From Candidatus Obscuribacterales bacterium (GTDB lineage: Bacteria; Cyanobacteriota; Vampirovibrionia; Obscuribacterales; Obscuribacteraceae), in assembly GCA_965228855.1 (NCBI GenBank), contig CBDDIJ010000002.1, forward strand, positions 352,001-416,000: a stretch of 64,000 nt of DNA. Direction: 5' to 3'. The notes beneath the pieces are model-generated. The model worked only from the letters and a program-made list of their open reading frames with translations, made no database searches and had not been told where the DNA came from. This document shows, in pieces, positions 5,054 through 62,297 of this stretch (its first letter is position 1; every line of letters starts with the position of its first letter). The position numbers and the translations under genes are program-made.

Positions 5054-5370
5054 CTACTATATTCCAGCGTATACGTATTTTCGACAGACTCCCACGAGCT
5101 CTGGTTTTCCGAGAACCGTTCCAACTGTTTACTCCCCAAATTGGCAGTTTGTCTACGGCTCGTTGCCGGATTTCGCAAATTCCGGCAATGCCACGTAGAC
5201 ATCGCTCTTAAGCGATATTGATTTCGCAAATTCCGGCAACGAGGCGTAGACAAAGCTCATGAGCGACGCCGATTTCAAGTCGCCTTCTCACGGAAGCTCC
5301 CCCACAGGCAATGGCGGCGAAATCGTCTTCCAGTTTCGCTAGTGCCCCGACAGCCGAAACGCGATAGTAG
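5054..5370. repeat. Arm-core-arm intergenic element, locus 1 (core 5150-5201, extra half core 5221-5252)
   Basis: CTACTATA at 5054; core TGTCTACG-GCTCG-TTGCCGGA-TTTCGCAAAT-TCCGGCAA-TGCCA-CGTAGACA; GATAGTAG at 5363-5370. Confidence 0.9.
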
Positions 5371-6072
5371 TTTCACGCACCTTCATGGCACCATCAGCGG
5401 TACCGCCTCCCAGTTACCGCGACTTCCGTACGTGGACTATTGATCTATGTAGTGTTTTGCATGAAGTCGCGGCAGAGCGTGACAACAACGTGACTGATAG
5501 CAGGAGTCGCGCAAGTTCAATTTTTGAAAACCCTGTTTTTGCGCGCACAAAATTTGCGCCAAGACAAATTTCCACAAGCTGGAGAAACATACTGTCACCC
5601 TCAAGAAGCGCTCCAACAGACACGTTTCAACATATGCATATCCGATGCGGAAAGACGCGATACACTCCGTTACGACATAACTTACGAAACTTAGTTTAGA
5701 AGATGAACTCGGAATCGGTAGATTGATTGGTATCAACACATCCCATGTAGTCATCACTTAGACACTCCTCGACCTTTGCCAGATGCAGCCAAACCGTTTC
5801 CGCAGCTCACTTTATTGTGGCTCGGTCGGTCTCGCATCCGGAAGGCAGGCGTGTGATGGGTTGATTGGGTCAAGGCTGCACGACCGGCTTGCCGCTCGCT
5901 GACGGTACCTTGACGCAAATAGCGACTTCCACCGCGACAGGCGAAACCTGCCGCTAAGGAGCTATTTGCAATGAAGAGTCTGGACACGAACTATCATCTA
6001 GACTTTCGTGGCAACAATTGGCCTTCTTTAGCTGTTCATGTGTGCCTGCGCGAGAGCAAAGGTACAACCATT

Positions 6073-6789
6073 ATGAACACGCTCAACAATGCCAATCACG
6101 CCGCTGCCTCTTCCCACAAGAACTCCAAGAAGAGCTTCTCCGTCTATCTCGCTGGCGACCTCTGGACGCACAAGGATCTGATCGGTAATGCTCTTCTCGG
6201 CGACTACATCAAGAAAGTCTCGCGGGGGCGCTATGAATGCGTTCTGCCGCAGGACCTGGAAGAACCCGTCCATCGCACTGTCGACATTCGCAACGTCGAC
6301 CTGAAACACGTAATGATGTGCGATATGGCAATCTTCAACTTCGACGGTTCCAATCTCGATTCCGGAACCGTGGTCGAGTTCATCTACGCCAAGATGATCG
6401 ATGTTCCGTGCGTCATCCTCCGCACCGACTTCCGGGCTTCCGGCGAGGGCGCAGAGGGACAGGATCCGTGGAACCTGATGGCTTCGCACTGGCCGCGTTC
6501 CAAAGTCGTTAAGCTGCACGGCATGGCCGAGTACCAGAGCGCCAAAGCAGGCACTCTGGGCAGAACCATCGAAAAGCTGTACAAGAAGATGTCCAGCCAG
6601 ATCGTCGAAGGTCTCGATGCCGTGAGACAGGAAGCGCCGCTCGTGGCAAATCCGGCTCGCATGGCGATGCTGTACGACTGGGCTATTGAGTGCCCCGGTG
6701 CCGGTTACAGCAACCTCTTTGAGAAAGCGGACCTGCAGCAGCTCCTCGCCGCCAAGATGGCGAAGGGTCTTCTCGCTAAGCATTCGTAG
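6073..6789 (+). CDS. Nucleoside 2-deoxyribosyltransferase / N-glycosidase family protein
   Basis: VYLAG, D..IFNFDG and DSGTVVE motifs of the NDT fold. Confidence 0.85.
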   Translation: MNTLNNANHAAASSHKNSKKSFSVYLAGDLWTHKDLIGNALLGDYIKKVSRGRYECVLPQDLEEPVHRTVDIRNVDLKHVMMCDMAIFNFDGSNLDSGTVVEFIYAKMIDVPCVILRTDFRASGEGAEGQDPWNLMASHWPRSKVVKLHGMAEYQSAKAGTLGRTIEKLYKKMSSQIVEGLDAVRQEAPLVANPARMAMLYDWAIECPGAGYSNLFEKADLQQLLAAKMAKGLLAKHS

Positions 6790-6896
6790 CCAATTCTAGC
6801 GGTTTCGAATCAACAGGTACTTCTAAGTTTTGAAACGCGCTGCCGGCGATCGAAACTACGGTTGCCGGCAGCCATCCCAATTCAAGGGAGGCTCAC

Positions 6897-7712
6897 ATGA
6901 AACAAGCAGAGAGACCGTTACCTGACTGGATGCAGAAGGCAGCAGCTGCCAATGCTCCTTTCAATGAAGAGAACACGCCGCTACTCCGACTATGGAAGGG
7001 CCTGGCCAATAAAGCTCAAGGGTTCGAGACCCTGGTCACCACCATGAAACAGGTTCAGGACCGTATGGCTCTGCTCGATACCGCGCCTCGCCACGACACG
7101 ATTCTAAGCGACGAACTCCTGCGGCAAGTAGCGCACAACAGCTATCACTGGCCGTTGCATGCCGCTCGAAATCGGCTCGAGCACTCACTAACGACAATCG
7201 ATGAAGCTTTCGCCAAGCTTCAGCACGTATTCCGCGGAGATCTGAAAGTCGCCTATTACGATCGCCTGGCACGCCATCGCGCTGAGGCTCAGAATCTGAT
7301 CGAACTGTTTTCAAAAATGCCATTCGACAAGGCTGTACAGCCTTTTACGATCCGGCAGCAAAACATGGCCAACCTCTATCACCAAATCAACGACTTCGTT
7401 GGTATCATCACGCCCCTGCGGCGGAGGTTCAAACCTGGAGAACTGCCCGAGGGAGTCTTAGAGGATCTTAAAGAAGTCGAGGCGGAGATTTATCGTCTAA
7501 GGTCGTCATTCGCGCGCTGGCGCGACAATCCCAGTCAAAAGCTGGGACGCAAGATGGCTGACGCACACGCTCGCTGCCATAAGATGTACATGACCGTCTC
7601 ACGTATCGCGCACAATGCGCGGTACGAATGCCAGCAACTCGGCATGATCTTCTGGGGGCGAGGCGGTCAGATCACCCTCCGGCCGTGGACACCGCCGACG
7701 CCGCTTCTGTAG
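6897..7712 (+). CDS. Hypothetical helical protein
   Basis: 271-aa ORF with GGAGG RBS; no family recognised. Confidence 0.65.
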   Translation: MKQAERPLPDWMQKAAAANAPFNEENTPLLRLWKGLANKAQGFETLVTTMKQVQDRMALLDTAPRHDTILSDELLRQVAHNSYHWPLHAARNRLEHSLTTIDEAFAKLQHVFRGDLKVAYYDRLARHRAEAQNLIELFSKMPFDKAVQPFTIRQQNMANLYHQINDFVGIITPLRRRFKPGELPEGVLEDLKEVEAEIYRLRSSFARWRDNPSQKLGRKMADAHARCHKMYMTVSRIAHNARYECQQLGMIFWGRGGQITLRPWTPPTPLL

Positions 7713-7923
7713 AAGATCGTGCAATTTAACAGAAAGTCGCAAAGCAGTGAGCCGACCAACTTCGACCGGTGAACGAATGTATATTCGCTCGCCGCAAAAC
7801 AGAATATCGACACTGCCCGCGGTGTCGATATTTTGAGAAAACATTCACGACGAGCCGGTGTTCATCGCCGACTCGTCATATCGGCTTATCGACCGGCCGC
7901 AACAACGACAATTGGAGTCCAGC

Positions 7924-8571
7924 ATGCCAGCAGTCTATCTGTTCGACCTGTGGCTGACTCTTGTCTTCGGTCTCACGACGGACCCGATCCTGACACTTCA
8001 GGAACAACTCGGGCTCGGAGTGAGAGTGGGTCATGTCACCACCATGAACGACGGCTTCCTGAACACCTGCCTGACGACCAACATTCCCGACGAACGCGAG
8101 TTTCTGCGGAACATCGCGCGAAGGCACGGCATTAAGGTGAACAGGAAGCACCACCGGCAGTTCCGCGAGCTCACCGCTCTGGAACAGCAAAAAGTGACTC
8201 TCTATCCCGAAACGCTCGCCGTCTTGACTGAACTCAAGGCACGCGGCGCGCGCATCGGTCTGATCTCGAATCTCTGGCCGTTCCCAGTGCAACGAGTCTT
8301 CGACGAAATGGGTCTGGCTGTTCACTTCGAACACCGGCTCTACTCATTCGAGGTGGGTAGCCGCAAACCCGATGGTCGCATCTTCCTGGAAGCGTGTCGG
8401 CGTTTCGGCGTCACGCCTGCCGACTGCCTGATGGTGGGCGATAGCTTGAGCTCCGACATCGCCGGCGCCCTGAGCGTTGGCATGCCGGCGGCTTTCGTGA
8501 ACCGCTCCGGCAAGACCGTTTCCAGTCCTCCAGGCGTGAAGCAAATCGTGTCGCTCAACGACTTGCTCTAG
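7924..8571 (+). CDS. HAD-superfamily hydrolase, paralog of 2326..3021
   Basis: FDLWLTL, ISNLWPFP, RKPDGRIF and MVGDSLSSD; GGAG before ATG 7924. Confidence 0.9.
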   Translation: MPAVYLFDLWLTLVFGLTTDPILTLQEQLGLGVRVGHVTTMNDGFLNTCLTTNIPDEREFLRNIARRHGIKVNRKHHRQFRELTALEQQKVTLYPETLAVLTELKARGARIGLISNLWPFPVQRVFDEMGLAVHFEHRLYSFEVGSRKPDGRIFLEACRRFGVTPADCLMVGDSLSSDIAGALSVGMPAAFVNRSGKTVSSPPGVKQIVSLNDLL

Positions 8572-8586
8572 GCCAGAAATAGTCCG

Positions 8587-8617
8587 GAAAGAAGGGGCAC
8601 CGCTCGCCCCTTCTTTC
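8587..8617 (+). terminator. Probable intrinsic terminator hairpin
   Basis: GAAAGAAGGGGC-N7-GCCCCTTCTTTC just after the stop at 8571. Confidence 0.7.
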
Positions 8618-8652
8618 GGCGAATCGCCCCACTTTCCAATTGCCCAGCCTCT

Positions 8653-8799
8653 CTACGATAGCGAACAGTAGAAACGATTCACGCGTTCCCGCGCCAGCCT
8701 GGCTTTCAGGACACTGGTCTCGAATACTTCCTCAAAATTCTGCTCGTTGTCTATGCCACATTGCCGGAATTCGCAAATTTCGTCAATGCTGCATAGACA
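8653..8799. repeat. Arm-core element, locus 2 (core 8748-8799; right arm not seen)
   Basis: CTACGATA at 8653; core TGTCTATG-CCACA-TTGCCGGA-ATTCGCAAAT-TTCGTCAA-TGCTG-CATAGACA. Confidence 0.85.
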
Positions 8800-8962
8800 T
8801 CGTTCGACTTCCGTCCGCGCTCTGTCGACGGAACACGTCATGCTCCTTACGGTATGGACGATTGACCACTTTCATACCGCGAACGGAAACGGCGCCCCGG
8901 AATTCCTCAGAAGGAATAGGACCTCGCCAACTTTCATATCTCGAAAGGAATACTGAACTTCA

Positions 8963-9062
8963 TTGAATTGAATTGAATTGAATTGAATTGAATCGAATCG
9001 AATTGGACTGAACTGAATTGAACTGAACTGGACTGGACTGGACTGGACTGGACTGGACTGGA
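8963..9062. repeat. Pentanucleotide tandem repeat, 20 units
   Basis: (TTGAA)6 (TCGAA)2 TTGGA (CTGAA)2 TTGAA CTGAA (CTGGA)7. Confidence 0.95.
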
Positions 9063-9528
9063 CACCGCCGATGGTGTCACTCGAATTTCAAGGCGCGCAA
9101 ACGGTTTAGCAAACAGAGTCAAAAACGCTCACAGTATGAGCGTTTGATAAGGTTGAAAAGAGGTCTTAGCGCAAGCTCGGTGAGGTCACGTTCAGCTTGA
9201 TTTGCACGAGCGCGCTTCAAACTTCAAAATATACGTTATCTAAGAAACGCGGGAAGTAAGAGAGCACGGACTGAAGCAGAAAGCCAAGGCTGAGAGCTAT
9301 CTTTGAATTTTCTACGCGATAAGTTCTAGGGTCCGTTGTCCCCTATCAAATCCGCGTGAGATTGCCAAACCACCAGAAAGTCCGCCTTGTAGCCCTTCCG
9401 CATCCCTGTTCAGCTGACGCTCAGGTTTTTCCTGGACGGTAGTTGCTCAGTGCAGATATTGAGCGCAACTGGCTGGCGCTGGCAATCGACGCGAATTCAA
9501 ACCTAAACCGCAAGGAGATTCTTGCTAA

Positions 9529-10533
9529 ATGTCTCTTGAAATTTGGAAGGACATCCTGGAATACGGACGTTGGGCGCCGTCGCCGCACAACATCCAATCC
9601 TGGCGTTTCCGGCTGGAAGCGGACGAGTCGTGCACGCTGCTGTACGATCCGACGCGCCTCCTGCCCGACACCGACCCGACTGGTCGCTTCTGCACCGTCG
9701 GCTTCGGCATTCTCCTCGAGATGCTCTCCATTGCAGCCGCTCCGCACGGGCTGGCAGTGAAGACCGACTACATCACGCGACATCTGGACCCTAACGTTCC
9801 AGGTGCCACGCCCTTCGCCCGACTCACACTCGTGCCGCGCGAAGACAAGGAAAAGCTCGACCGCCAGCTCATTCTCGACCGTCGCACCTCGCGACTGCCG
9901 TACGACGAGGTGCCGGTTTCCGACTCGGTTCTGAATGAACTCGCGGCAGTCGCCGACGGTTTCGGCCACAAACTCGAGTTCTCCTCTGACCCCAAAGAAG
10001 TGGCTTGGGTTGTGCGTCTCAACGCCGACACCATGTTCTTCGACATGTCGGACCCGGTCGCGCGCAACGAGGTCGGCGGCTGGATACGCTTCAGCTACGC
10101 CGAAGCCAAACGTCGCGCCGATGGTCTGGCGGCCTACGCCATGCACTTTCCGGGGCTGCTCATGAAGCTCTTCGTGCATGCCAACTACCTCTTCCGCATC
10201 CCCGGCATCTACCAGGGAGTGCGCTGGTTCTACGAGCGGAGCATGCGCGGCACGCGCACTGTCGCCTGGCTCTCCGGTCCATTCGAGAAGCACGAAGACT
10301 GGGACAACACCGGGCGGATGATGGCGCGGCTCTGGCTCACCATGACGAAGCACGGTGTTTACCTGCACCCGTTCGGGTCGGTGATCACGAATCCGAAGGC
10401 GCATGCGCGTCTCGCGGAGCACTTCGACGACGGCACACGCAAGCACGACCTCTGGCTGCTTCTGCGGCTCGGGCACAGCGACTTGCCTCCGTCGGCTCAA
10501 CGTCTCACCCTCGAGCAGCTGCTCGAGAAGTAG
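9529..10533 (+). CDS. Acg-like / nitroreductase-fold FMN-binding protein
   Basis: WAPSPHNIQSW N-terminal motif, RRTSR, C-terminal LLRLG; AAGGAG RBS. Confidence 0.8.
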   Translation: MSLEIWKDILEYGRWAPSPHNIQSWRFRLEADESCTLLYDPTRLLPDTDPTGRFCTVGFGILLEMLSIAAAPHGLAVKTDYITRHLDPNVPGATPFARLTLVPREDKEKLDRQLILDRRTSRLPYDEVPVSDSVLNELAAVADGFGHKLEFSSDPKEVAWVVRLNADTMFFDMSDPVARNEVGGWIRFSYAEAKRRADGLAAYAMHFPGLLMKLFVHANYLFRIPGIYQGVRWFYERSMRGTRTVAWLSGPFEKHEDWDNTGRMMARLWLTMTKHGVYLHPFGSVITNPKAHARLAEHFDDGTRKHDLWLLLRLGHSDLPPSAQRLTLEQLLEK

Positions 10534-10579
10534 GCGGTCAGCTCATTTCGAAATGGAACTCTCAAAGGAGAAATTCAAA

Positions 10580-12133: not shown

Positions 12134-12323
12134 GCACCGCCTGCGGTGCCGGCAATGTTTTCCGGATGGCGAGGTCAACGCGATTTGACCTCGCCGACCA
12201 TTCTCTGCTCCAGGGTCTGAACCTGGCTCCGTCAATCCAGCAGCGACGGTTTTAGCGAATTCCGTCGCTGTCTCATTGATGGACGGTCTCGTTCAACACA
12301 CCGATTGTTCGAAAAGGAACGAT

Positions 12324-13448: not shown

Positions 13449-13561
13449 CGTCTGCTGCGTTTGGATTTAAACCGTTTGAGCCCACGGCTCAGCGCGTTTA
13501 ATTGTCGGGGAGGTGATACTGGCAAATCGCCACGTCACCTCCCTCGGCTTCCACAGCCCGC

Positions 13562-13798
13562 CTACTATATTCTTCCGTATCGTTCAAACGAGCACATCGA
13601 CTGCCCAGTCACGGTTTTCGCGGATCATTCAAGTTCATCCTCCGGAAGAAGGCTGTGTTTGTCTACGACAGAATGCCGGATTTCGCCAAAAGCGTCATTC
13701 CAGGATAGACAAAATGACTTACGGCTTTTACATAACAACCGCTAAACCAGCGCCATTGGGCATCCCGAGACCATCACAGAAACGATATCCTATAGTAG
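13562..13798. repeat. Arm-core-arm element, locus 3 (core 13660-13711)
   Basis: CTACTATA at 13562; core TGTCTACG-ACAGA-ATGCCGGA-TTTCGCCAAA-AGCGTCAT-TCCAG-GATAGACA; TATAGTAG at 13791-13798; lies between convergent genes. Confidence 0.9.
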
Positions 13799-13856
13799 CT
13801 AATTCGACAGGAGAAACCGGCTCGGAGAGCCGGTTTCGGAGAGAGCGAGAGAGTGG

Positions 13857-16017: not shown

Positions 16018-16749
16018 ATTGTGCCTTTCGAAAGTTTGCAGAAACAGCCCTTTGGGGTGAAGCGCGCGCCAAGTGGGCTTGTAACCCGGCGCGTGCACCT
16101 TATGGTTTCAGCCAGCCCAAGCAATCGATTCGCCGCCCAGACCCATCTCCGTGTCCCACCACCGCATAATGTGCGAAGAGGCAGGGGAGGATTGCGTCTG
16201 TTTTTCGGTGGGCGGGTTCTCGAATGCAGTGAGTGAGGCAAGTACAAATCTTTGGTATCAAAAAGATGACAGCCGAGACAATCACCGCGAGCATTAGTAT
16301 TTGGAAATAAGAACTTTCGCGCATCATGAACCGAATGTGAAAAGAGCCGAATTCTTGATCAGTTCTACTGCGACCACGCGCGTGATAAAGCTCCGCGCAC
16401 CTAGCGCTAGCTCGCTTGTAAAGAGGATCGTTACACAGTAACCATGCGTAACCTCCCCTGTCGAAAAACCATCCGAGCTGGCACAACATCGTGATATTTT
16501 GCCATTTCACACAAAGCTCTTCACCTGCATACTTTCTCAGGAGCTAAACCGTTTACAGCCTCGCACCGCATACGGTGCACAGATGTCTCGCCAAAACCGT
16601 CGCTCTCTCATTGACAGGGCTTGAGACTCATTTATGACAAGCTCGGATGCCTTGCCTCGCAGGTCTTTATCAATTAAACTGTTCGCTATGAAAGGCTCCG
16701 CTTTCGCGTAGAAGCCTTTCATCCTTTTTCAAATGAAACGGACTGTCTT

Positions 16750-16886
16750 TGTCTATCCTACGATGCCGGAATTCGGAAATTTCGTCGCTCTCCGATAGCC
16801 AAAAAAACTCTCCGCCTCGAAGCGATCCGGAGAACCCCGACCGCATCAAGGTTTCCGGAATCCACTTTTCCTATGTTTTATAGTAG
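16750..16886. repeat. Core-arm element, locus 4 (core 16750-16801; left arm not seen)
   Basis: TGTCTATC-CTACG-ATGCCGGA-ATTCGGAAAT-TTCGTCGC-TCTCC-GATAGCCA; TATAGTAG at 16879-16886. Confidence 0.85.
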
Positions 16887-16979: not shown

Positions 16980-17303
16980 TCACCAGCCCCGCTGGGGGTA
17001 GCCAGGGTAGTAGCGCGGCGTGTTGTAGCGCGGGTAGTTGTACCGGTTGCCGTAAGGGTTCCCGTAGGGGCGGTTGTACGGATTGCCGTACGGGTTGTAG
17101 CGGTTGCCGTAAGGATTCCCGTAAGGGTAGCCGTACGGGTTTCCGTAGGGACGGTAGTACGGGCTGTACCGATAGTGCGGATTCCCGATATCGATGTGGA
17201 TGCCGCCGGGACCGACGTGAACGCCACCGGCTTGCGCCTGCGAAGCGCCGACGGAGAAGAAGAGGGCGACACCGACGATTGCGGACAGGATCATGGTCTT
17301 CAT
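16980..17303 (-). CDS. Small secreted Tyr/Gly/Asn/Pro-rich repeat protein
   Basis: Signal peptide ending in AQA; repeated YGNP units. Confidence 0.75.
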   Translation of the reverse strand: MKTMILSAIVGVALFFSVGASQAQAGGVHVGPGGIHIDIGNPHYRYSPYYRPYGNPYGYPYGNPYGNRYNPYGNPYNRPYGNPYGNRYNYPRYNTPRYYPGYPQRGW

Positions 17304-17828
17304 AGGTTTCTTTCGTTTGTTGTTGTTGTTCTGGAAAGAGCTTCTCGCCGAACCCCTCCGAAAACCGGCTCACGACCTGCCACTACGGTGCAGCAGAGAA
17401 AACGTGAGAAGAAAGCGTGCTTGTGTTTCTAGTTAGAGAATTCCGGAAAATCAGATAGGGTCGAGAAGTACACCGAGACTATCGATCCAACGACAGCAAC
17501 ACAAGGTTTGATTATTACATATAAAGGCAAAGGTTCATCGAAAGAAACGCTGATAACCAGGCACTCTTCGAAGGTTTCAATAATGCGAGCCGCTCGCAAC
17601 TGTTTCACTCCGGACGAAAAACATTCGCACATTCGGATCGGGTAGCTCGCCGCTTTGATATTGCAGAAAACTTTTTGATGCTTGGAAACACTGATAGGTT
17701 CGGCATTCCCGCCCCTATCGTAATTTTCCCATGAAAACGGTACAGAATGTTCACACAATATCCCTAGGGTATTCGTGTCGGGACTCCGCAATATCAATCC
17801 CGATTCGAGTCAAACAAAAGGTTGGGTT

Positions 17829-18713
17829 ATGGTCATGGTTAAAACTGCACTTCCGCAAGAGCTTTCAAATCTAATCGGCGAGTACGAGCGCAGCCTCAAT
17901 AGTAAGGAATTCTCCGCTCACACGAAGCGCGCCTATATCTCAAGAAACAAAAAATTTCTTTCCTACCTACATGAGTCCGAGGGAATCTCCTCGATGACGA
18001 ACTTCGACAAAGGCTGGTCAGAAGTCATCAATAATTACAGAGAATTTCTCAAGAGCGAGCATCAAGCATCTCTGAATTCAATCAATAACAGCTTGACCGC
18101 AATCGAAGACATCTTTTCTTTCATCGGCGTCGACATGGGTCGGGTCGAGCGCGAAGCATGGCCGAAATCGACTCCGCGCTGTCTGACGCAGCATGAACAG
18201 GAGCTGTTCATAAACGCTGTTTACCGTACAAAATCGTCTAAAGATAAAGCGATTGTTCTACTGATTTTGTTTACCGGTATTAAAATCGGAGAATGCGCAT
18301 CGTTAGATATAGACGACATCTTCATCAGCGCACACACAGGTCGAATCACTGTAAAAGACGGTCGCATCATACCACTGAATACGGTGGCACGCCGGGCCCT
18401 TATTCAATGGCTTATCGACCGCCACAAAAAATTTGGCGAAACCGCTGAGCGCGCATTATTCCTCAATCCTCAAGGAAAACGTATTTCAACGGTCGGCATC
18501 GATCTTATCGTCCGCAAGATCGGACACAAGGCTCACCTCAATATCTCAGCACAAGTTCTTCGTGACACCTGCTTGAGCAACCTGGTGAGAAACGGAAACG
18601 ACCTCTTGCTCGTCGCACAGATCGGCGGACATAGAACGATTGAAACCACAAGACGCTATACCAGCTCCCGGAGCTTTGATGCTCACGAGGCGATGGAAGC
18701 GCTCGGTCACTAA
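17829..18713 (+). CDS. XerC/D-like tyrosine recombinase-family protein with atypical catalytic residues
   Basis: N-terminal SAHTKRAY; box I KDKAIVLLILFTGIKIGE; box II SAQVLRDT...GGHRTIETTRRY. Confidence 0.85.
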   Translation: MVMVKTALPQELSNLIGEYERSLNSKEFSAHTKRAYISRNKKFLSYLHESEGISSMTNFDKGWSEVINNYREFLKSEHQASLNSINNSLTAIEDIFSFIGVDMGRVEREAWPKSTPRCLTQHEQELFINAVYRTKSSKDKAIVLLILFTGIKIGECASLDIDDIFISAHTGRITVKDGRIIPLNTVARRALIQWLIDRHKKFGETAERALFLNPQGKRISTVGIDLIVRKIGHKAHLNISAQVLRDTCLSNLVRNGNDLLLVAQIGGHRTIETTRRYTSSRSFDAHEAMEALGH

Positions 18714-22948: not shown

Positions 22949-23381
22949 CTACTATATTCCGGCGTATTCACATTTCCCGGAGAATGATTGACCAGTGGAG
23001 GTTTGCGGCGTTCATCCTTCCAAACCAGTGTGCATTCTTGCCAGTTTGTCTACGCCTCATTGCCGGATTTCGAGAAAAGCGGCAATGGCTCGTAGCCACC
23101 GCTCACTACTATATTCCGGCGTATACGCCTTTTTCGGACAACCCTCTCCCCTTGGAGCTTTCGGGCATCACCCATCCGGATCGGAGTCAATTTTTGCAGG
23201 CTTGTCTACGCCTCATTGCCGGATTTCGCGAAAAGCGGCAATGGCTCGTAGACAGAGCCCAGCCAAAAGCTGGTCATAAAACCTGAAAGCCCGCTCGGTG
23301 CTTAAACCACCTTTGATATGATCTAGTAGTAGTCCTGAAAGCCAGACCGGTGCTTAAACCGCCTTTAAAACGATCTAGTAG
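22949..23381. repeat. Tandem double element, locus 5 (cores 23047-23098 and 23203-23254; duplicated right arm)
   Basis: CTACTATATTCCGGCGTAT at 22949 and 23106; two near-identical 52-bp cores; TCTAGTAG at 23322 and 23374 inside a 52-bp-period duplication. Confidence 0.92.
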
Positions 23382-33426: not shown

Positions 33427-33721
33427 CTACTACATCCCGGAGTATCTTGGAATTACTACTATAGTAGACAGTCTAAATTTCCTACCAGAAGAATCCCGAG
33501 ACGCAGCAATAGCAGCCCTTTCAAGATTTAAAACATATCCCACGTCAATTCAAATTCTATTTTGTCGCTGTCAGATAGCCGGATTTTCAGGAAAGCGTCA
33601 TACTGGGATAGACACGGCTCGTCCAGAAAAAGGGAACAGATGTCGAAGATGCGCTGCTGCCCCACCACATCGCAACTTCAGCATTTCGGACTTTTATAGT
33701 AGACACGGTTGCTTATAGTAG
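33427..33721. repeat. Arm-core-arm element, locus 6 (core 33563-33614; multiple arm sites)
   Basis: CTACTACA at 33427; CTACTATAGTAG at 33456-33467; core TGTCGCTG-TCAGA-TAGCCGGA-TTTTCAGGAA-AGCGTCAT-ACTGG-GATAGACA; TATAGTAG at 33695 and 33714. Confidence 0.88.
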
Positions 33722-35984: not shown

Positions 35985-36274
35985 CTACTATACATTTTCG
36001 TATCACCAAAATACTGCAAACGACTGCTGCGATGGTCTTTCGAGAATTACGCAGCAAGCAGAACGGGCTTCAAGAACCCGTTTGGCAACGACAGATAGAC
36101 GGAATTTCAAGAAAGCGTCATTCCAGGATAGACAAGAAGCGACTAGACTTGGGTCACATCCCCCGGAAGCTAGACGGGCGCACGAACATGACCCTATCTT
36201 CTATAGTAGCACTTCGGACCATCTACCCCGGAAGCTGGACGGGCGCACGAACATGACCCTATCTTCTATAGTAG
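35985..36274. repeat. Arm-core-arm element, locus 7 (core 36083-36134; right arm duplicated with 65-bp period)
   Basis: CTACTATA at 35985; core TGGCAACG-ACAGA-TAGACGGA-ATTTCAAGAA-AGCGTCAT-TCCAG-GATAGACA; 49-bp repeats 36161-36209 and 36226-36274 both end in TATAGTAG. Confidence 0.9.
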
Positions 36275-38506: not shown

Positions 38507-38748
38507 TGTCTACTATAAGACAAAGTATCCACAAAGTCCGAAAGGCCTTGTTCTACAATGCTTCCCGCTCTGCGACGTCCAATTACTGCGTCACTTGTCT
38601 ATCTGGCTATGACGGATTTGCCGAAATCCGTCGCTCTCCCGTAGCCAAGCAAGCAGGTTTCGCGCACACTCCGACGACGCACTCGCTGGAAACCCATCTC
38701 TCCCAGACCTTTCGAGGATCGCTATATACCCACTCTTTATAGTAGACA
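38507..38748. repeat. Arm-core-arm element, locus 8 (core 38596-38647)
   Basis: TGTCTACTATAA...TTATAGTAGACA outer inverted repeat; core TGTCTATC-TGGCT-ATGACGGA-TTTGCCGAAA-TCCGTCGC-TCTCC-CGTAGCCA; fills the gap between convergent genes. Confidence 0.92.
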
Positions 38749-52522: not shown

Positions 52523-52587
52523 TAGCTTTCTGGAACGGCGTCGCTAGCACAAAACCGCTACCGATGCCGTTCTTCTCAAATGCCATA

Positions 52588-53046
52588 CTACTATATGATC
52601 CCGTTTTTCCCGCCGCCCTACTATATGATCTCGTTTCTTTTCAACGACCGCTGACACCCGGCTAGCCTTGTGGCGCAACCAAGGACAGCCTCGCTCCCGT
52701 CCAGGGCACTCGTCGCAAGGCACTTTTGGCTACGTAGCGTAGACGGATTTTCAAAAATCCGGCAACGCCACAGCGCCAAAACGCAGTTGATCTCACTTTA
52801 AAACGCAACCAAAGCGGACTAAAAACCAGACGAACTCTGACTTCTAGCGCATCCACGCTATCCTACGGCATCTAGTAGCTATGCAACAGGCACTTTTGGC
52901 TACGCTGCGTAGACGGAATTTTCAAAAATCCGGCAACGCCACAGCGCCAAAACGCAGTTCGCAAACCTCAAACTGAAATCAAACGCCCAAGAACTAGTCT
53001 CACTAGGTCCTTTCAAGGAACGAGCTTATACGTCGGCTTATAGTAG
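52588..53046. repeat. Tandem double element, locus 9 (cores 52727-52778 and 52897-52949)
   Basis: CTACTATATGATC at 52588 and 52618; cores TGGCTACG-N5-TAGACGGA-N10/11-TCCGGCAA-CGCCA-CAGCGCCA; TCTAGTAG at 52871; TATAGTAG at 53039. Confidence 0.9.
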
Positions 53047-53091
53047 CCATGGTATGATCATCGCATTTCCTAGAATGAAAGGGGTATATGC

Positions 53092-54201: not shown

Positions 54202-54211
54202 CGATGACTCG

Positions 54212-55261: not shown

Positions 55262-55277
55262 TTAGTTTCAAAAACAC

Positions 55278-56246: not shown

Positions 56247-56831
56247 GTTTCAGGGAGTCCATTTACACAGCAAAACGGATTGGAAGAATGCGCGCACCTC
56301 GCAGTCGAGGCGTCAGCACCCTGCCATAAACTCTCTACCCACTGACGAGAACAAAATCACCCGGATCGATCGAGGACAGGAGCTGAAGCCGATCTCGCCT
56401 ACTGACAACCCGGAATTACCGAAAGAAACTCCTGAAATGACACTATGAAGAATACCTCACGTTAGCTATTTGCAGAGCTAGCGAAGCATCGCCAAAACCC
56501 GCACCTGTTGGCGTTCGCCCCGATCCGTATGTCCTGTTCCGGTCGAGCTCGGTATAGCTTTCCGAATCCAGAACCTTTCAAGCTAGTTATTATTAAACTC
56601 TTCGCGGTTGTCATCAAATACCGCCTATTACTACTTTAAAAGCATCATTAGTTTTTCTTTTGACCATCCAAACGCAAGCACTGTTATAGCTAGATTTTTC
56701 ACGCGACATTTTCCTCTACCCGAGGATAAATTCAACTCGCGCTGAGAACCTCGCTCTAGCTGTGCGCGTCACTGCTGTCGGCGTCTCGCGATGTCGACAT
56801 CACAGGCGTTAGCCTCCATAGGACAGGGAAT

Positions 56832-57851
56832 ATGATTCTCGCAAATCCACTATGGCTCTTGCTTGTGCTGCTGCTGCCAATCCCGTGGTTGGTGGCGCGA
56901 CGCAAGGGCTACGTCGGTCTACCCGGCGTCGGCAGAATCGCCCCCATTAAGGGCGGCTGGATTCTGCATCTGATTCCTGTTTTGCTTCTTGTCGCTGGTT
57001 TCGCAAGTTTGTCCATCGCACTGGCACGCCCTCAGAAGCTGCATGTTGTAACGACCAACTCGTTCAAGTCTCGCGACATTTTGATTGGCGTGGACATCTC
57101 CGGCTCGATGGCAGGACACTTCGGCAAACCGCCCGAGAGTGTCGTCGGCCAGACCGAGCTGGATAAGGACTTCCCAGGACGTCCCGATCGCCAGCCCAAG
57201 GGCAAGCAGGACCCGTTTAGCGGGATTGGTGAGCGGCGCATCGACAACGCGCAAGCAGCCACTCTCGACTTCATTCGCAACCGTTATCTCGCCAAAGCCG
57301 GCGACCGCGTCGGACTTTTCGTGTTCGACACCGAGCAGTACTGGCACTGGCCGCTGACGCATGACCTCAAGATGATCTACCGGAAAGTGCACTTTGCAGA
57401 CGAAGGTCTGGGCGGCGGCACCAATTTCGGCAGTTATCCTCCCGGTCCGCTCGACGCAGCTGCTGAGCATCTCGATGACATGGGTCGCGCCGCCACGCGC
57501 GTGCTGATCATGGTCACCGACTGCGAAGACAGCGTCTACGGCGACACTTTCAATCGCCTGGAAGCGCTCGCAGCAAAATACAGGTTGAAACTGTATGTCG
57601 TGGTCGTCGGCTCGTCGCAGGCGGACCCGGACATCATCCGGCTCGCCGAAGCGACCGGCGGAAAAGGTTTTCGCGCCGACAACCCTCAGGACCTCAAGGA
57701 CTGCTTTCAGACCATCGACAAGATGGAGCAGTCTACGGTCACTGTGGAGACTTCGGAGAACCGCGAAGAGCTTTTCTTCTACTTCGCCTGGGCGGCAATC
57801 GGTCTCTTTCTTCTCGGCACCATCGGCGAGGCACTCGTCCTCAACCGATAG
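56832..57851 (+). CDS. VWA-domain membrane protein (MxaC/BatA-like)
   Basis: N-terminal P.WLLL, ALARPQ, MIDAS DISGSM, DRVGLFVF, VTD. Confidence 0.88.
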   Translation: MILANPLWLLLVLLLPIPWLVARRKGYVGLPGVGRIAPIKGGWILHLIPVLLLVAGFASLSIALARPQKLHVVTTNSFKSRDILIGVDISGSMAGHFGKPPESVVGQTELDKDFPGRPDRQPKGKQDPFSGIGERRIDNAQAATLDFIRNRYLAKAGDRVGLFVFDTEQYWHWPLTHDLKMIYRKVHFADEGLGGGTNFGSYPPGPLDAAAEHLDDMGRAATRVLIMVTDCEDSVYGDTFNRLEALAAKYRLKLYVVVVGSSQADPDIIRLAEATGGKGFRADNPQDLKDCFQTIDKMEQSTVTVETSENREELFFYFAWAAIGLFLLGTIGEALVLNR

Positions 57852-57924
57852 TTCGATTGGCAGCAGGGTGAACAACTCCCGCCGGGAGTCGCTACTGCCG
57901 CCTGGAATCAGGAGTTAGCACACG

Positions 57925-58461
57925 ATGACAAATCTAGCAGATTTCATCCGTGCTTATCGTGTTCAGGCTATGACCCTACTGATGGTGGCAAGCATCTGCG
58001 CGTCGCTGTACGGGGTTTACCGCCTGGTTTCTTATTCGGTACCGATGGCGTCTGAGGATTTCGTTGGCGCAGTCGAATCGCCGGTTGCGGATCGTCCGCT
58101 GGTTCTCTACAACTTGGGGCTGCAAGCCTACAAGATGGAGAACCACGACATCGCCAAGCAGATTCTGACTGATGCGTTCAATGAGCTCACCAGGAACACG
58201 GGCGTGGTTCCTCCCGACAGGAAGGAACTCGCCGGCCAGATCCAGTTCATGCTGGGTGTGGTCAACGAACACGAAAAGCAGTTTCGCGTTGCGATCACGG
58301 CGTACGAAGATTGTCTTCGTCAGACGCCGGAGAATCTCAATGCCAAGTACAACCTCGAGCGGCTGAAGCAGCAATTTCCCGACATGGGCAAGGGCGGCTC
58401 ACCGCAAGATCCGTCCGGAGATCCCTCCTCCGGCAAACGCAATGACAAGAAGGGCATCTAG
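57925..58461 (+). CDS. TPR protein (MxaK/BatC-like)
   Basis: YNLG, A...Y..LR..P.NLNAKYNLE. Confidence 0.78.
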   Translation: MTNLADFIRAYRVQAMTLLMVASICASLYGVYRLVSYSVPMASEDFVGAVESPVADRPLVLYNLGLQAYKMENHDIAKQILTDAFNELTRNTGVVPPDRKELAGQIQFMLGVVNEHEKQFRVAITAYEDCLRQTPENLNAKYNLERLKQQFPDMGKGGSPQDPSGDPSSGKRNDKKGI

Positions 58462-58472
58462 GAGAGATAACT

Positions 58473-59600
58473 ATGCATCTCATCAATCCGACGGTGCTCT
58501 GGCTGCTCGTGGCGATTCCGCCGCTGGCAGGCTTGGCACTGTGGTTCGCCTGGAAACAGAACGAAAGTTTCCAGGATCGTTTCGGTGACAGAAAGCTGTT
58601 CGGGCGGCTCTCCGAGTTCGTCACGTCCGGCACTTACGCGGTCAAGGCAGTCTGCCTGATCGTGGGATTGTCACTACTAGTGGTGGCGCTCGCGCGTCCG
58701 TCGATTAAGAACGGTACCGCTGAGTTCCCGCACGGTAACATCGATGTGATTGCCATCGTCGACGTCAGTCGCTCGATGGCGGTGCCTGACTACAAAGGCA
58801 CACTCGATGGCACCACCTATGCCGAAGGGCGCAGGCTGGATATGGCGCGGCATCTTATCCTCACGGACATGATTCCGTCGCTCAACTACAACCGGCTCGG
58901 CATCGTATCCTACGCCGGCTCCGGTTTCCCGATGGCCTTCCTGTCGGACGACATGCTGGCACTGGACTGGATGCTGAAACGCGCGCTCGTCATGGGCAGC
59001 GCTCCGGGCGAAAACTCGGAACTCGGCAAAGCCTTCCAGATGGCAAACACGCTGTTCGACCTCGACTCGAAGCCGGGGAATCGGCGCATCGTCGTGCTGT
59101 TCTCGGATGGTGGCAACGACACGGAACTGCCGGAATTGCATGAGGCGATTGCCGAAATGCAAAAGCGCGGTGTCGAGCTCATCATCGTCGGTCTCGGCAA
59201 GCCAGTCGGACAGCCCATCCCGGTGAAGCTTCTGAGCAGAGCGGACCAAAACCGCTTCTCCGACTCGGAGTTCTACCAGCACGAGGGACAAACGGTCACG
59301 TCCAAGCTCGAGGAGAACACGCTTCTTCTCATGCGCAACATGACAGGCGCGCGCTATGTTCGCGTCGTCAATCCGTCCGACTTCAAGATTGGCAATCTGA
59401 TTTCGCGGGCCGATGTAAAATTCAAAGATGGTGAACAGGAACTGTTCGTCTGGCCGCTCATGTTGGCGGCGCTGTTCCTGATGGCCACTCTGTTCATCCC
59501 ACGCACTCGCAAGAGCGGTAATTTGTCGCAATACAAGTTCCGCCGAGACGAGAAGCATAAGTCTCCTGGTCGAGCGCAACGCGACCGGGCGAACGAATGA
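58473..59600 (+). CDS. VWA-domain membrane protein (MxaL/BatB-like)
   Basis: ALARP, DVSRSM, LFSDG. Confidence 0.88.
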   Translation: MHLINPTVLWLLVAIPPLAGLALWFAWKQNESFQDRFGDRKLFGRLSEFVTSGTYAVKAVCLIVGLSLLVVALARPSIKNGTAEFPHGNIDVIAIVDVSRSMAVPDYKGTLDGTTYAEGRRLDMARHLILTDMIPSLNYNRLGIVSYAGSGFPMAFLSDDMLALDWMLKRALVMGSAPGENSELGKAFQMANTLFDLDSKPGNRRIVVLFSDGGNDTELPELHEAIAEMQKRGVELIIVGLGKPVGQPIPVKLLSRADQNRFSDSEFYQHEGQTVTSKLEENTLLLMRNMTGARYVRVVNPSDFKIGNLISRADVKFKDGEQELFVWPLMLAALFLMATLFIPRTRKSGNLSQYKFRRDEKHKSPGRAQRDRANE

Positions 59601-59615
59601 GGCAAGGAGTTTTCC

Positions 59616-60596
59616 ATGAAAACAATCCTGACCAACCTCGTCGCGCTCGTCGTCTGCGTGTCCCTCGCACTCGGGGGTCTCGTGTGGCTGACCAAGAGCG
59701 ACTTGACGGCTTGGCCTGATTTCAGCGCCGCCTCGCAAAATCCGGAAGATCCCCTGTCACCGCAGGTGGTGTCGGATTTCGATCGCGATTTCGGCTGGCG
59801 CATCGGGGACATTGTTCCCGTTCAGCTCTACCTGCACCAGAAGCCCGGCACCATTGTGGACCTCCACAGCCTGGCGGTGGAAGGGGACTTCGACATTCTC
59901 GAAGAACCCACGATCGTCACTCGCGACTACGAAGACGGCTCGAAGGACATCGGCATCAAGTTCCGAATCCAGAGCATGTCTCCCGCGAAGAAGCTCAACC
60001 TGAAGGTGAGCATGCTCTACCGGCATCTCGCCGGCGGTGACGACAAGCTGATTTCGATTCCCGCATTCGAAGCATACACCTCGCCGACCTGGGATGGTCG
60101 CGACATCATCAAGGATGGCAAGCCGGATTTCATCCAGGAGCACCACATGCTCTGGACCCTGGCGTTCATCTTCGGTGGTATCGCCCTTGCCACCACTGCG
60201 CGCTCCATGCGCCGGCGGTTCGTCGCCGAGGTCGAGCGCGCAAAGAAGAAAGCCTGGGAGACGCGAAGGCAGACCGCCAGACGCGAATTCGACGAAGCCT
60301 GGGCGCGTTTCGAAGCCGGTGAATACCGAGTTGAAAACTACAAAGCGATTGTTCGATGCCTGCGCAAGCTGTTTCGCATCGAATCAAAGGTCCGGCGCGA
60401 GATCGAGCTGGAACTCGGAGGCGGTCATCCCTATCGGGAGCAGACGCTGAAGATTCTCGAGATCACCAGCCGGGTCCTGTACGAAGAACGCGTCCTCAGC
60501 CGGGACGAGCACCAATCCATCAAAGATCTGTTCGATCAGATCGTCCCACCTCAAGTGGGACCAGGAGCGGTCGCCGAAGGCCAGAACGCGAACTAG
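59616..60596 (+). CDS. MxaA/BatD-like membrane protein
   Basis: RDFGWRIGD motif, central TM, helical C-terminus; operon context. Confidence 0.6.
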   Translation: MKTILTNLVALVVCVSLALGGLVWLTKSDLTAWPDFSAASQNPEDPLSPQVVSDFDRDFGWRIGDIVPVQLYLHQKPGTIVDLHSLAVEGDFDILEEPTIVTRDYEDGSKDIGIKFRIQSMSPAKKLNLKVSMLYRHLAGGDDKLISIPAFEAYTSPTWDGRDIIKDGKPDFIQEHHMLWTLAFIFGGIALATTARSMRRRFVAEVERAKKKAWETRRQTARREFDEAWARFEAGEYRVENYKAIVRCLRKLFRIESKVRREIELELGGGHPYREQTLKILEITSRVLYEERVLSRDEHQSIKDLFDQIVPPQVGPGAVAEGQNAN

Positions 60597-60601
60597 CAGC
60601 C

Positions 60602-60658
60602 GAACGGACCGTCCGCGAAGGGGCTTGTAACCCTGGTTGCGGACGGTCCCGTTCTTTT
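60602..60658 (+). terminator. Probable intrinsic terminator
   Basis: GAACGGACCGTCCGC...GCGGACGGTCCGTTC followed by TTTT. Confidence 0.75.
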
Positions 60659-60713
60659 CACGCTTAGCCCGCGCGAGACAACTGCTCGTGCGGACTCCAA
60701 TCGAGTAACTGCC

Positions 60714-61577
60714 ATGACTAAAAGGACTTTCACCCTTCTCGTCGGAGTCCTCCTGCTGGTCGCATTTGCGCCAGTCTGGGCATCCTTGCAGTCCGGGAAG
60801 GGACAAACCATTTCAAATGAGAGGTCATCCTCACAAAAAACCGAATCCATTGCTCGCGGACGTTCGGCGAAAGCCGCTGTTCGCACCCATGAAAACTGCG
60901 TCGACGCGGAGGAAGCCTGCCTGCCGCCCGAAGCACCACCGGTGCTACCACTCAACGGCATCACGATCTTGCTGGACGCCGGTCACGGCGGCAGCGACAG
61001 CGGTGCCATTCGTGCCGGTGTCTACGAAAAGGACGTCAACCTGTCGGTGACCTTGAAGCTCCGCGACCTGCTGGTAAAGCAAGGCGCGACTGTTTATCTC
61101 ACGCGCAAGGACGATACTTTTCTGACACTCGACGAGCGCAAAGCGCTCATCGCGAAGTACGCCCCCACCCTCTTCTTGAGCATTCATTCGAATGCCAATG
61201 ACAAAACCGCAATCGACGGAATTGAGGCGTACTACTGGAATACCGTCAGTCCGACGCTCGCCCAGTCTATTTACCAGGCTGTCGCAGATGGCCTGGGCGA
61301 GCGAGGAAACTGGGTCCGCAAGCGCGAACTTGCCGTGGTACACCACGACTTCGCGCCAGCCGCCCTCATCGAAATCGGCTATTTGTCGAACGCACGCACG
61401 CGCAAGCTGCTCGCGGACGACAAATATCAAACTCGCGTTGCCGACTCGATTGAAGACGGAATCCTCGACTACGTTTCGAAACAGCGCCCTGGAGGCGCTG
61501 GTGGTCCTTCCGGAAACGGAAGCGACACCCCTACCGCTAAGCCTCCCGCGGACAAGTTGTCCGTGGTCGGCCTTTAG
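60714..61577 (+). CDS. N-acetylmuramoyl-L-alanine amidase (Amidase_3)
   Basis: LDAGHGG.D.GA, EKDVNL, SIHSN, LIEIGYLSN; signal peptide. Confidence 0.93.
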   Translation: MTKRTFTLLVGVLLLVAFAPVWASLQSGKGQTISNERSSSQKTESIARGRSAKAAVRTHENCVDAEEACLPPEAPPVLPLNGITILLDAGHGGSDSGAIRAGVYEKDVNLSVTLKLRDLLVKQGATVYLTRKDDTFLTLDERKALIAKYAPTLFLSIHSNANDKTAIDGIEAYYWNTVSPTLAQSIYQAVADGLGERGNWVRKRELAVVHHDFAPAALIEIGYLSNARTRKLLADDKYQTRVADSIEDGILDYVSKQRPGGAGGPSGNGSDTPTAKPPADKLSVVGL

Positions 61578-61610
61578 CGTTCGCAATCAACGAATAGGAG
61601 AAACAGAATC

Positions 61611-61973
61611 ATGGAATTTCTGATCAGCATCGCGCTGCAAGTCCTGGCCCTTCTCGTCGTCGTCCCCGCCGTCACCGGCAACGGCGTCGCTGTTCGCCAG
61701 GGCGGCTTCTTCCGTGGTCTGCTCGTGCTCTTCTGCATCGGGCTCACCAACATGATCCTCTGGTTCGGGCTCACGCTCGTGACCGTGGGCATGACCATCG
61801 TCACCCAGTGGCTGACCTTCGGTCTCGTCGGTCTCCTGATCAACGCGCTGGCGATCAAACTCGTCGGCAATGCCCTCAACGACGTCCTCTACGTCCGCAG
61901 CTACGGCTCGGCGTTCCTGGCGGCCATCGTGATGGTGCTGACCAACTGCGCCATCCGCTACTTCCTGTTCTAA
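61611..61973 (+). CDS. 4-TM phage-holin-family (YvlD-like) membrane protein
   Basis: Four hydrophobic segments; LTFGL..L.INA and SAFLAAIV motifs. Confidence 0.75.
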   Translation: MEFLISIALQVLALLVVVPAVTGNGVAVRQGGFFRGLLVLFCIGLTNMILWFGLTLVTVGMTIVTQWLTFGLVGLLINALAIKLVGNALNDVLYVRSYGSAFLAAIVMVLTNCAIRYFLF

Positions 61974-62047
61974 CGAACAGCCGCTGAGAAGCAGCACCCG
62001 GAACCGCTCACAAAGCGACTTCCGGGTGCTGCCCTCCTCCAGAATTC

Positions 62048-62297
62048 CTACTATAAAGCCCAGTGTTTCCGTTTCTTCCAAATCGCACTCTGACACAGGG
62101 TTTAGGATGCCACTATGTGCGAGCTCAATCGATTTTGTCTATCACACGATGACGAATTTCGCGAAAAGTGTCATCTTGTCGTAGACAGACTCAGAGTTTC
62201 CGCGGTCAAAGCACCCGGGACTCGTAGCAAAGAAGCGCTCACCCACTGCTTTTAAGAGCGGCAGGACGCTAGCCAAGTTTACTTGTCTTTATAGTAG
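62048..62297. repeat. Arm-core-arm element, locus 10 (core 62136-62187)
   Basis: CTACTATA at 62048; core TGTCTATC-ACACG-ATGACGAA-TTTCGCGAAA-AGTGTCAT-CTTGT-CGTAGACA; TATAGTAG at 62290; lies between convergent genes. Confidence 0.9.

What the first reader, a model, noticed from the sequence alone, without database searches (positions are those of the whole stretch)
5054..62297. Arm-to-core distances fall in steps of about one helical turn
Seen (hand-counted). Left arm start to core start: 96, 95, 98, 98, 97, 107, 98, 86, 109, 88 bp. Core end to right arm end: 87, 85, 75, 88 and 107, 75, 98, 100, 97, 110, and 118 from the half core. Values cluster near 75, 85-88, 95-100, 107-110 and 118, with gaps between. 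Established: about 10.5-bp phasing is the hallmark of DNA looping or wrapping between distant bound proteins, as in intasomes and resolvase synaptosomes. Inference: arms and core must lie on the same face of the double helix, so the element acts as bent dsDNA rather than as RNA or ssDNA.
Basis: partly seen in the sequence, partly recalled or inferred. Interest (0 to 1): 0.85.

Follow-up and report, generated by a model that had tools for sequence, protein, structure and literature searches.

The report
Helically phased origin-region DNA junction sites
About 200 non-coding sites crowd around the replication origin of an Obscuribacterales bacterium, each pairing a short palindrome with a double palindrome 7, 8, 9 or 10 DNA turns away; the same ladder recurs with an unrelated double palindrome in another genus, so the sites likely form protein-held DNA loops that likely mark where foreign-looking gene blocks were cut and joined.

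Summary
Confirmed and extended. All 21 hand-counted distances reproduce. Genome-wide, 216 arm-core distances form four peaks (74.5, 86.3, 97.7, 108.6 bp), none in the gaps (R=0.81); the step is about 11.4 bp, not 10.5. A second genus (G083) has the same arm, an unrelated core and its own ladder (79, 90.5, 102). The arm is a family-wide palindrome, TACTA-N7-TAGTA, concentrated around dnaA and typically 14 nt past a terminator-like hairpin, mostly of GC-rich gene blocks. The core is two 17-bp palindromes 33 bp apart and does not covary like a hairpin. Arm-to-core units are duplicated in tandem and copied to other loci with a sharp boundary at the arm. Best reading: a looped or wrapped dsDNA complex (well supported) that positions a cut-and-join point just outside the arm (inferred; no enzyme found). 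It works like res/cer sites but fails the membership tests for REP/RAYT, IS630 MITE and res. Not in the scan's earlier notes nor in my paper searches.

The parts
5002..5038 (+). terminator-like hairpin ending 15 nt before the first arm
   Evidence: sequence; family-wide spacing
5054..5370 (.). element 1: left arm 5054 (96 bp), core 5150-5201, extra half core to 5252, right arm ending 5370 (118 bp from the half core)
5055..5071 (+). arm proper: degenerate TACTA-N7-TAGTA palindrome (here TACTA-N7-CGTA-type right half)
5150..5201 (.). 52-bp core: two 17-bp imperfect palindromes, centres 33 bp apart, A/T-tract linker
8653..8799 (+). element 2: one arm (95 bp) plus core 8748-8799
12230..12281 (.). 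armless core variant (type that forms 73-bp arrays elsewhere)
13562..13798 (.). element 3: arms at 98 and 87 bp, core 13660-13711
16595..16886 (-). element 4: half core 16595-16616, core 16750-16801, right arm at 85 bp
22949..23381 (.). element 5: tandem arm-core units (98, 97 bp; period 157, 7-nt junction), right arm at 75 bp with a 52-bp arm duplication
33456..33721 (.). element 6: left arm 107 bp, core 33563-33614, right arms at 88 and 107 bp
35985..36274 (.). element 7: left arm 98 bp, core 36083-36134, right arm 75 bp with a 65-bp arm duplication
38510..38745 (.). element 8: arms at 86 and 98 bp, core 38596-38647
52588..53046 (.). element 9: left arms 52588 and 52618 (109 bp), core 52727-52778, right arm 100 bp, 53-bp core 52897-52949, right arm 97 bp
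62048..62297 (.). element 10: arms at 88 and 110 bp, core 62136-62187
63947..63954 (+). left arm of the next element, whose core lies just past the window end

Best explanation
Each site is a double-stranded DNA module in which a family-wide 17-bp palindrome (arm) lies a quantised distance from a lineage-specific pair of palindromes (core), and proteins on the two likely close a loop or wrap that likely fixes a cut-and-join point about 7 nt outside the arm. Shown: the spacing ladder in two genera, phased A/T tracts between arm and core, clustering around dnaA, the fixed distance to upstream hairpins, tandem and dispersed copies bounded by the arm and the far edge of the core, raised divergence next to the arm. 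Inferred: a conserved factor binds the arm and a fast-changing dimer pair binds the core; only spacers that keep the phase stay functional; an unidentified DNA-level activity opens the DNA outside the arm and joins it imprecisely to a new partner end (the far core edge, a point in the spacer, or the terminator end of a GC-rich gene block). It would work like a crossover site with phased accessory sites (res, cer), but in about 200 copies. My odds: loop or wrap 0.85; cut-and-join role as the main function 0.45.
For: Ladder and empty gaps; independent ladder in G083; orthologous spacers differ by 0 (33), 1 (9) or 2 bp (3) of 45, never by 3-8, despite 10-15% substitutions. Cores in G083 and G041 differ in sequence but keep two palindromes 33-34 bp apart around an A/T-CG-A/T linker. 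Copies at unrelated loci share sequence from the arm to the core end: 0-2 outer bases shared in 48 of 59 pairs, 0-2 bases beyond the core in 42 of 59 (pairs share members). Tandem units join the core end to the next arm through 6-9 nt in 30 of 53 junctions (two genomes pooled); the linker matches the own outer flank at 48%, other flanks 30%, the template continuation 22%. Divergence between G000 and G007 is 20-31% at most positions -15..-1 and 42% at +20/+21, against 4-10% in distant flanks. An arm-adjacent deletion truncates a gene in G007. Duplications are as frequent with a gene end facing the arm (53 of 147) as with a gene start (22 of 58), and with or against the fork (32 of 92, 43 of 113): site-intrinsic, DNA-level. 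Core-to-core spacings in arrays keep a 10.4-bp phase.
Against: No enzyme tracks with the sites: no serine recombinase, Y1 transposase or IS630 transposase in G000/G007; the degenerate XerC-like pair is not found in complete G041; the conserved retron-like RT is not found in G083 at E<=1e-45. No target-site duplication. Loci are stable between strains: 62 of 65 G007 loci are filled in G000, and no clean empty site was found. 192 of 216 distances lie in two classes, and no spacer family spans two classes, so few independent length changes may underlie the ladder. G041 gives no clean ladder. Homologous genes of G000 and G041 do not share the 3' site more often than chance (3 of 8 versus 6 of 30). 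No binding or cutting was tested.
Confidence: 0.45

Rival explanations
1. The arm is a bidirectional transcription roadblock or insulator placed after weak terminators of foreign gene blocks; looping to the core strengthens it, and the rearrangements are by-products of stalled complexes.
For: Hairpin base lies 12-16 nt before the arm in 79 of 153 sides with a hairpin in G000 and 12-18 nt in 66 of 141 in G041, flat in controls. A DNA-bound EcoRI mutant stops RNA polymerase 14 nt upstream (10.1101/100073, passage). Elements are enriched between convergent genes (67 of 161 versus 79 of 448 gaps). G041 sites are symmetric, 39 of 115 with T-tract left and A-tract right.
Against: A stall 14 nt upstream would leave the RNA end at the hairpin base, not 7-8 nt past it as intrinsic termination needs (own knowledge). 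Duplication frequency does not depend on incoming transcription or fork direction. It does not explain sharp-edged copies at unrelated loci.
Confidence: 0.25
2. The arm end captures RNA 3' ends by target-primed reverse transcription: terminator ends (hairpin + about 7 nt) and core-ended transcripts are both joined about 7 nt outside the arm.
For: Hairpin-to-arm mode 14 nt equals a 7-nt tail plus 7 nt, and core end to next arm has mode 7. Partly scrambled linkers. A single-copy retron-like RT is kept in 36 of 104 family genomes.
Against: Duplications are not enriched where a transcript reads through the arm (p=0.87). The RT is not found in G083 or in palindrome-rich G102, G106, G112 (84-94% complete). 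GC-rich blocks of up to 39 genes in mixed orientation are not single transcripts.
Confidence: 0.1
3. The arm-to-core unit is a non-autonomous mobile element (MITE- or rolling-circle-like) whose length is quantised because both ends must meet in one complex, as for short IS50 derivatives or Paramecium IESs.
For: Sharp ends and unit lengths 126.5, 138, 150, 161 bp; occasional carry-over past the core (17 of 59 pairs); IES precedent (PMC3464196, passages).
Against: No TSD, no IS630 or Y1 transposase; Y2 search uninformative. Arms without cores are common in the family. G083 units are half a turn off.
Confidence: 0.12
4. The sites are gyrase-wrapping or supercoil-handling sites, like BIME-2 or strong gyrase sites, with breaks from abortive cleavage.
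For: Phased A/T and G/C tracts over about 60 bp; location after transcription units; gyrase motif is about 130 bp with 10-bp phased G/C (PMC6379681, passages).
Against: That motif is degenerate, whereas the arm has an almost invariant core and a 5-7-5 dyad; the lineage-specific double palindrome is unexplained.
Confidence: 0.05
5. The ladder is a founder effect: a few ancestral length variants were amplified and the 11-bp steps are chance.
For: Two classes hold 192 of 216 values; no family spans two classes.
Against: Five steps in two genera all fall at 11.0-11.8 bp; 202 unrelated spacer families; 1-2 bp indels occur but 3-8 bp ones do not.
Confidence: 0.05
6. The core acts as an RNA or ssDNA hairpin (REP-like).
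For: Some cores fold well (z -3.2); location after gene ends; two IS110 types target it, as for REPs (recalled).
Against: Observed pairing about equals expectation from column composition at most positions; other cores fold no better than shuffles; no Rfam match; a hairpin needs no helical phase.
Confidence: 0.03

Closest known systems
Tn3-family res sites (site I plus accessory sites II and III)
   Same: One outer dyad plus two accessory dyads; the outer-to-accessory distance varies by whole turns (4-7 turns, phasing required: PMC12217951, passage).
   Different: 7-10 turns; about 200 dispersed copies; arm and core differ in sequence and the core is swapped between lineages; junctions are imprecise and outside the arm; no resolvase in G000/G007.
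Xer cer/psi sites with PepA/ArgR accessory DNA; IMEX/pdif
   Same: Short dyad with a 6-8 bp centre next to about 100-180 bp of accessory DNA (PMC5357621, passages).
   Different: No dif-like sequence; no canonical dif found in G000; the 7-bp centre is variable in G041; scrambled junctions are not typical of tyrosine recombinases (own knowledge).
REP/BIME/REPIN repeats and their RAYT transposases
   Same: Intergenic palindromes after gene ends, tandem arrays, GTAG and CGTC words inside, targeted by IS110 elements.
   Different: No RAYT, no hairpin covariation, a second distant phased site, confinement to the origin region. The REP survey (PMC3733652, passages) has no occurrence of 'helical'.
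Paramecium internal eliminated sequences
   Same: Natural length ladder with about one-turn steps read as looping in a cut-and-join complex (PMC3464196, passages).
   Different: Eukaryotic, excised, TA-bounded, period about 10.2 bp; here two different sites are phased and the period is about 11.4 bp.
I-F CRISPR leader with IHF and upstream motifs
   Same: About 150 bp of host DNA folded by proteins to define where foreign DNA is integrated (10.1101/2023.05.26.542337, search listing and passages).
   Different: No repeat-spacer array; Cas1 was not searched; the neighbours are whole gene blocks.
Domain-restricted chromosome sites (parS, matS, Noc/SlmA sites; recalled, not from a call)
   Same: Short palindrome restricted to one chromosome domain: 41 of 43 exact copies in G041 lie in the 800 kb around dnaA.
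   Different: Fixed spacing to terminators, phased partner sites and arm-anchored rearrangements are not known for these (own knowledge).

Membership tests
Tn3-family res site | three dyads with whole-turn spacing | tested here: met
   6.9, 8.0, 9.0, 10.0 turns plus 33 bp; half-turn offset in G083
Tn3-family res site | cognate serine resolvase in the genome | tested here: not met
   PF00239: 0 matches in G000 and G007, control rang in 12 of 14
Tn3-family res site | precise crossover at the centre of the outer site | tested here: not met
   shared sequence of dispersed copies includes the 7-bp centre; junction linkers outside the arm are scrambled
REP/REPIN-RAYT | RAYT (Y1) transposase present | tested here: not met
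   0 in G000 and G007; control rang in 6 of 14
REP/REPIN-RAYT | conserved hairpin with compensatory changes | tested here: not met
   variable folding
IS630-type MITE (CTAG target, TA duplication) | whole two-armed element copied as a unit with conserved interior | tested here: not met
   copies are one-sided arm-to-core units; left and right spacers unrelated
IS630-type MITE (CTAG target, TA duplication) | IS630 transposase and empty CTAG sites | tested here: not met
   PF13358: 0 of 5 genomes, control rang in 5; no clean empty site
IS91/Helitron-like rolling-circle element | one precise end, one leaky end, no TSD | tested here: met
IS91/Helitron-like rolling-circle element | HUH Y2 transposase | tested here: inconclusive
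   PF04986: 0 of 12 genomes but the control rang nowhere; a crude HUH motif scan of G000 printed nothing
Tyrosine-recombinase (Xer/att) site | dyad with 6-8 bp centre | tested here: met
   TACTA-N7-TAGTA; N6 and N8 controls at background
Tyrosine-recombinase (Xer/att) site | a recombinase with intact catalytic residues that co-occurs with the site | tested here: inconclusive
   XerC-like pair has K and Q where R and H are expected (canonical residues recalled) and is not found in G041; housekeeping XerC/D binding not testable
Sigma-54 enhancer (tandem UAS) plus promoter | sigma-54 activators in the genomes | tested here: not met
   PF00158 at E<=1e-10: none in 4 of 5 genomes, two partial matches in one G000 gene
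Hairpin-telomere (ResT/TelK) site | telomere resolvase | tested here: not met
   PF16684: 0 of 5; control rang in 1 of 14
CRISPR leader / Cas1-type integration site | Cas1 and repeat-spacer array | not tested
   Cas1 not searched; no array seen in the repeat scan of the window
Strong gyrase site / BIME-2 | gyrase cleavage at the site | not testable with these tools
   needs Topo-Seq

The most novel reading that the evidence does not exclude
Obscuribacterales run an undescribed gene-capture system in their origin domain: a family-wide palindrome serves as a docking point to which GC-rich gene blocks are attached by their terminator ends, and in several lineages exchangeable operator pairs, held in helical phase, build the looped complex that licenses the cut and spreads itself. 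It would be a dispersed, integron-like platform that has brought in about 450 kb of this genome.
Probability: 0.3. Interest if true: 0.93.

Novelty: categorically new. Interest (0 to 1): 0.8.

Why it matters
It is a natural helical-twist experiment with over 200 largely unrelated spacers, repeated in a second genus with a different core, so the geometry of an unknown protein-DNA machine can be read from sequence alone. It also exposes a larger pattern: an origin-proximal domain of about 1 Mb in Obscuribacterales where GC-rich gene blocks end at one palindrome. If the site is a joining point, this is a route of gene acquisition and shuffling unlike integrons, transposons or CRISPR; if it is a looped roadblock, it is a sequence-specific insulator for foreign genes. 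Either is directly testable with short synthetic DNAs.

Tried and rejected
Rfam: 0 matches in the window. Hairpin covariation: absent at most positions; a few (4, 13, 14, 25) exceed expectation but belong to motif variants. TSD: none around 36 one-armed or 61 two-armed G000 elements; the script stopped before finishing G007. Neighbouring elements are no more alike than distant ones (0.49 versus 0.48), so no sequential array growth. Outward -10 promoter (TATAGT): rejected because the two bases it needs vary in G041 and no -35 appears. GC-rich genes as simply highly expressed genes: EF-Tu, EF-G and ribosomal proteins have GC3 0.46-0.64 (script looped, codon table not obtained). Viral contigs: no core or arm-core match and no close relative of two GC-rich genes. 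First G083 core pattern was mis-spaced and found nothing. Enzyme families not found. Atlas search of the XerC-like protein gave only generic integrases. No RNA holder listed; raw-read runs X21 and X22 laid 0 reads, so no test. L007-L051, the metagenome strain (65 of 67 distances in class) and G007 are close kin and were not counted as independent replication. Contigs C1, C4, C6 look like contaminants and hold no cores. Gene calls in G000 and G041 come from my own crude ORF caller. Supplementary files of papers were not opened.


Full report
Observation. The window (G000:C2:352001-416000) holds a repeated intergenic element: an arm starting CTACTATA, a spacer, and a 52-bp palindromic core. A profile finds 210 cores in the genome and none in a shuffled contig. 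Of 420 core sides 248 carry an arm, 10 of them outside 60-130 bp. The 216 unique sides within that range give R=0.813 at 11.6 bp (null 99.9%: 0.18), with class means 74.5, 86.3, 97.7 and 108.6 bp and 0 of 216 in the gaps; 202 spacer families give the same R. The step, 11.0-11.8 bp, is longer than 10.5; an 11-bp period is commonly read as the pitch of negatively supercoiled DNA (PMC4132750, abstract and passages).

Independence. G007 (94% identical, syntenic) and a metagenome strain (65 of 67 distances in class) are kin. Between G000 and G007, 33 of 45 orthologous spacers keep their length, 9 differ by 1 and 3 by 2 bp. The core pattern is found in 3 of 104 family genomes (198, 182 and 1 copies). 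Matching named records are Obscuribacterales. The real replication is G083, another genus: same arm, unrelated core, 25 copies. In the 21 cores I fetched, 20 of 22 arm distances lie at 78-80, 89-91 and 100-103 (R=0.80), half a turn off the G000 phase. G041 has a third core type (14 copies in 800 kb) with a peak at 81-86 but no clean ladder; G078 shows a fourth at one locus.

Anatomy. The G000 core is two 17-bp imperfect palindromes, centres 33 bp apart, around an A/T-tract linker; variable positions do not covary as a hairpin. G083 and G041 cores keep the 33-34 bp spacing and the linker. The spacer carries A/T tracts near +25, +33, +53, +62, +71 and, in the 98 class, +87. In G041 the arm is a clear dyad, TACTA-N7-TAGTA: 41 of 43 exact copies lie in the 800 kb around dnaA, and one-mismatch copies number 115 against 10 and 9 for N6 and N8. 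In G000, 178 of 210 cores are on C2, nearly all within 1.15 Mb around dnaA at 793 kb; sampled arms also lie near dnaA in G012, G078 and G083.

Context. With my crude gene calls, 428 genes with GC3 of 0.65 or more (450 kb) sit in this zone and few elsewhere; they are not the highly expressed class, and homologues occur in G005, G006 and G041. Arms face their 3' ends in 103 of 181 cases; in G041, 46 of 78 such junctions carry the dyad against 9 of 104 co-directional host junctions. Arm sides have an upstream hairpin (60% with z below -2, versus 9% of armless sides) whose base lies 12-16 nt before the arm in 79 of 153 cases.

Dynamics. Loci are stable (62 of 65 shared) but arm and core numbers differ between strains. 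Tandem copies start at or just outside the arm and end in the spacer or at the far core edge; 30 of 53 core-to-arm junctions are 6-9 nt. Linkers are partly scrambled copies of the outer flank. Copies at unrelated loci run from the arm to the core end with unrelated flanks, without TSD. Divergence peaks on both sides of the dyad. Duplication is independent of incoming transcription and of fork direction. Armless cores form 73- and 83-bp arrays, and core spacings keep a 10.4-bp phase.

Mechanism. The phase ladder, the tracts and the lack of covariation support a looped or wrapped dsDNA complex, as argued for res sites (PMC12217951, passage) and Paramecium IESs (PMC3464196, passages). That it positions a cut-and-join point outside the arm is inferred from the boundaries of copies. 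Against: no enzyme tracks with the sites, no empty site was caught, and homologous genes do not share the site across genera more often than chance. A looped transcription roadblock is the main rival; RNA-end capture fits the 7+7 geometry but not.

Novelty. Paper searches on the lineage and on the motif returned nothing relevant (listings of unrelated papers; 0 papers); the library lacks most subscription journals. The scan's notes hold no such element. For 10.1101/2021.12.07.471667 and PMC5357621, PMC6379681, PMC3733652, 10.1101/100073 and 10.1101/2023.05.26.542337 I saw passages only. parS/matS, canonical recombinase residues and terminator geometry are recalled.

Verdict. The phasing is real, strong and replicated; the dsDNA reading is supported; the system around it fits no family I tested. 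Interest 0.8.

Noticed in passing
G000:C2:774714-775673, 858575-859534, 1120784-1121743, 987926-988864, 197250-198188; C5:1461455-1462393, 861234-862172 (L096-L100): Two IS110-family elements (52% identical transposases); all 7 copies sit inside cores, one type at the outer subsite and the other at the inner one. Their target RNAs should match the core.
   Followed up: partly
window 17775-18713 and G000:C2:923144-924055: Pair of XerC-like proteins with K and Q at the usual R and H positions but H and Y kept; about 90% conserved in the genus, found in 16 of 41 relatives, both copies in the origin zone; not found in G041.
   Followed up: partly
G000:C3:2800508-2801395 (L137) and C2:944459-945628: A single-copy retron-like reverse transcriptase kept in 36 of 104 family genomes, below all family cut-offs; a second one with a C-terminal extension is truncated next to an arm in G007.
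   Followed up: partly
G000:C2:1-1150000; G041:C1:2.4-3.04 Mb; G012 and G078 origin regions: A GC-rich gene class (VWA operons, band-7, FtsH-like, HAD, TruD-like, NadE-like) confined to the origin region in G000 and present in the sampled origin regions of relatives; donor unknown.
   Followed up: partly
window 12230-12281; G007 L053-L055, L072, L081: Armless core variant forming 73-bp arrays (7 turns) of up to 6 units with a conserved 21-bp linker containing CTAG.
   Followed up: partly
genome-wide spacer lengths: Sub-peaks two bases apart inside classes (86 and 88; 96, 98, 100; in G083 78/80, 89/91, 100/102) are unexplained.
   Followed up: no
L012, L013: A contig filed as an Acidobacteria MAG carries these elements and resembles the G000:C2:562690 locus; probably mis-binned.
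   Followed up: partly
G000 contigs C1, C4, C6: Look like contaminants (eukaryote-like and proteobacterial genes).
   Followed up: no
G000:C3:1.83 Mb and 2.57-2.60 Mb: EF-G/S12 lie near the skew-defined terminus (C3:1.56 Mb) and the main ribosomal protein cluster far from dnaA, an unusual layout.
   Followed up: no
window 8954-9028 and 16980-17303: A TGAAT-type 5-bp microsatellite and a GC-rich gene with 12-bp repeats coding a Pro/Tyr/Gly/Asn-rich tail.
   Followed up: no
G041:C1:3008728 and 3039137: Arms followed by what looks like yet another core variant (ATGACG...CATCA-type pairs) at the edge of the fetched region.
   Followed up: no
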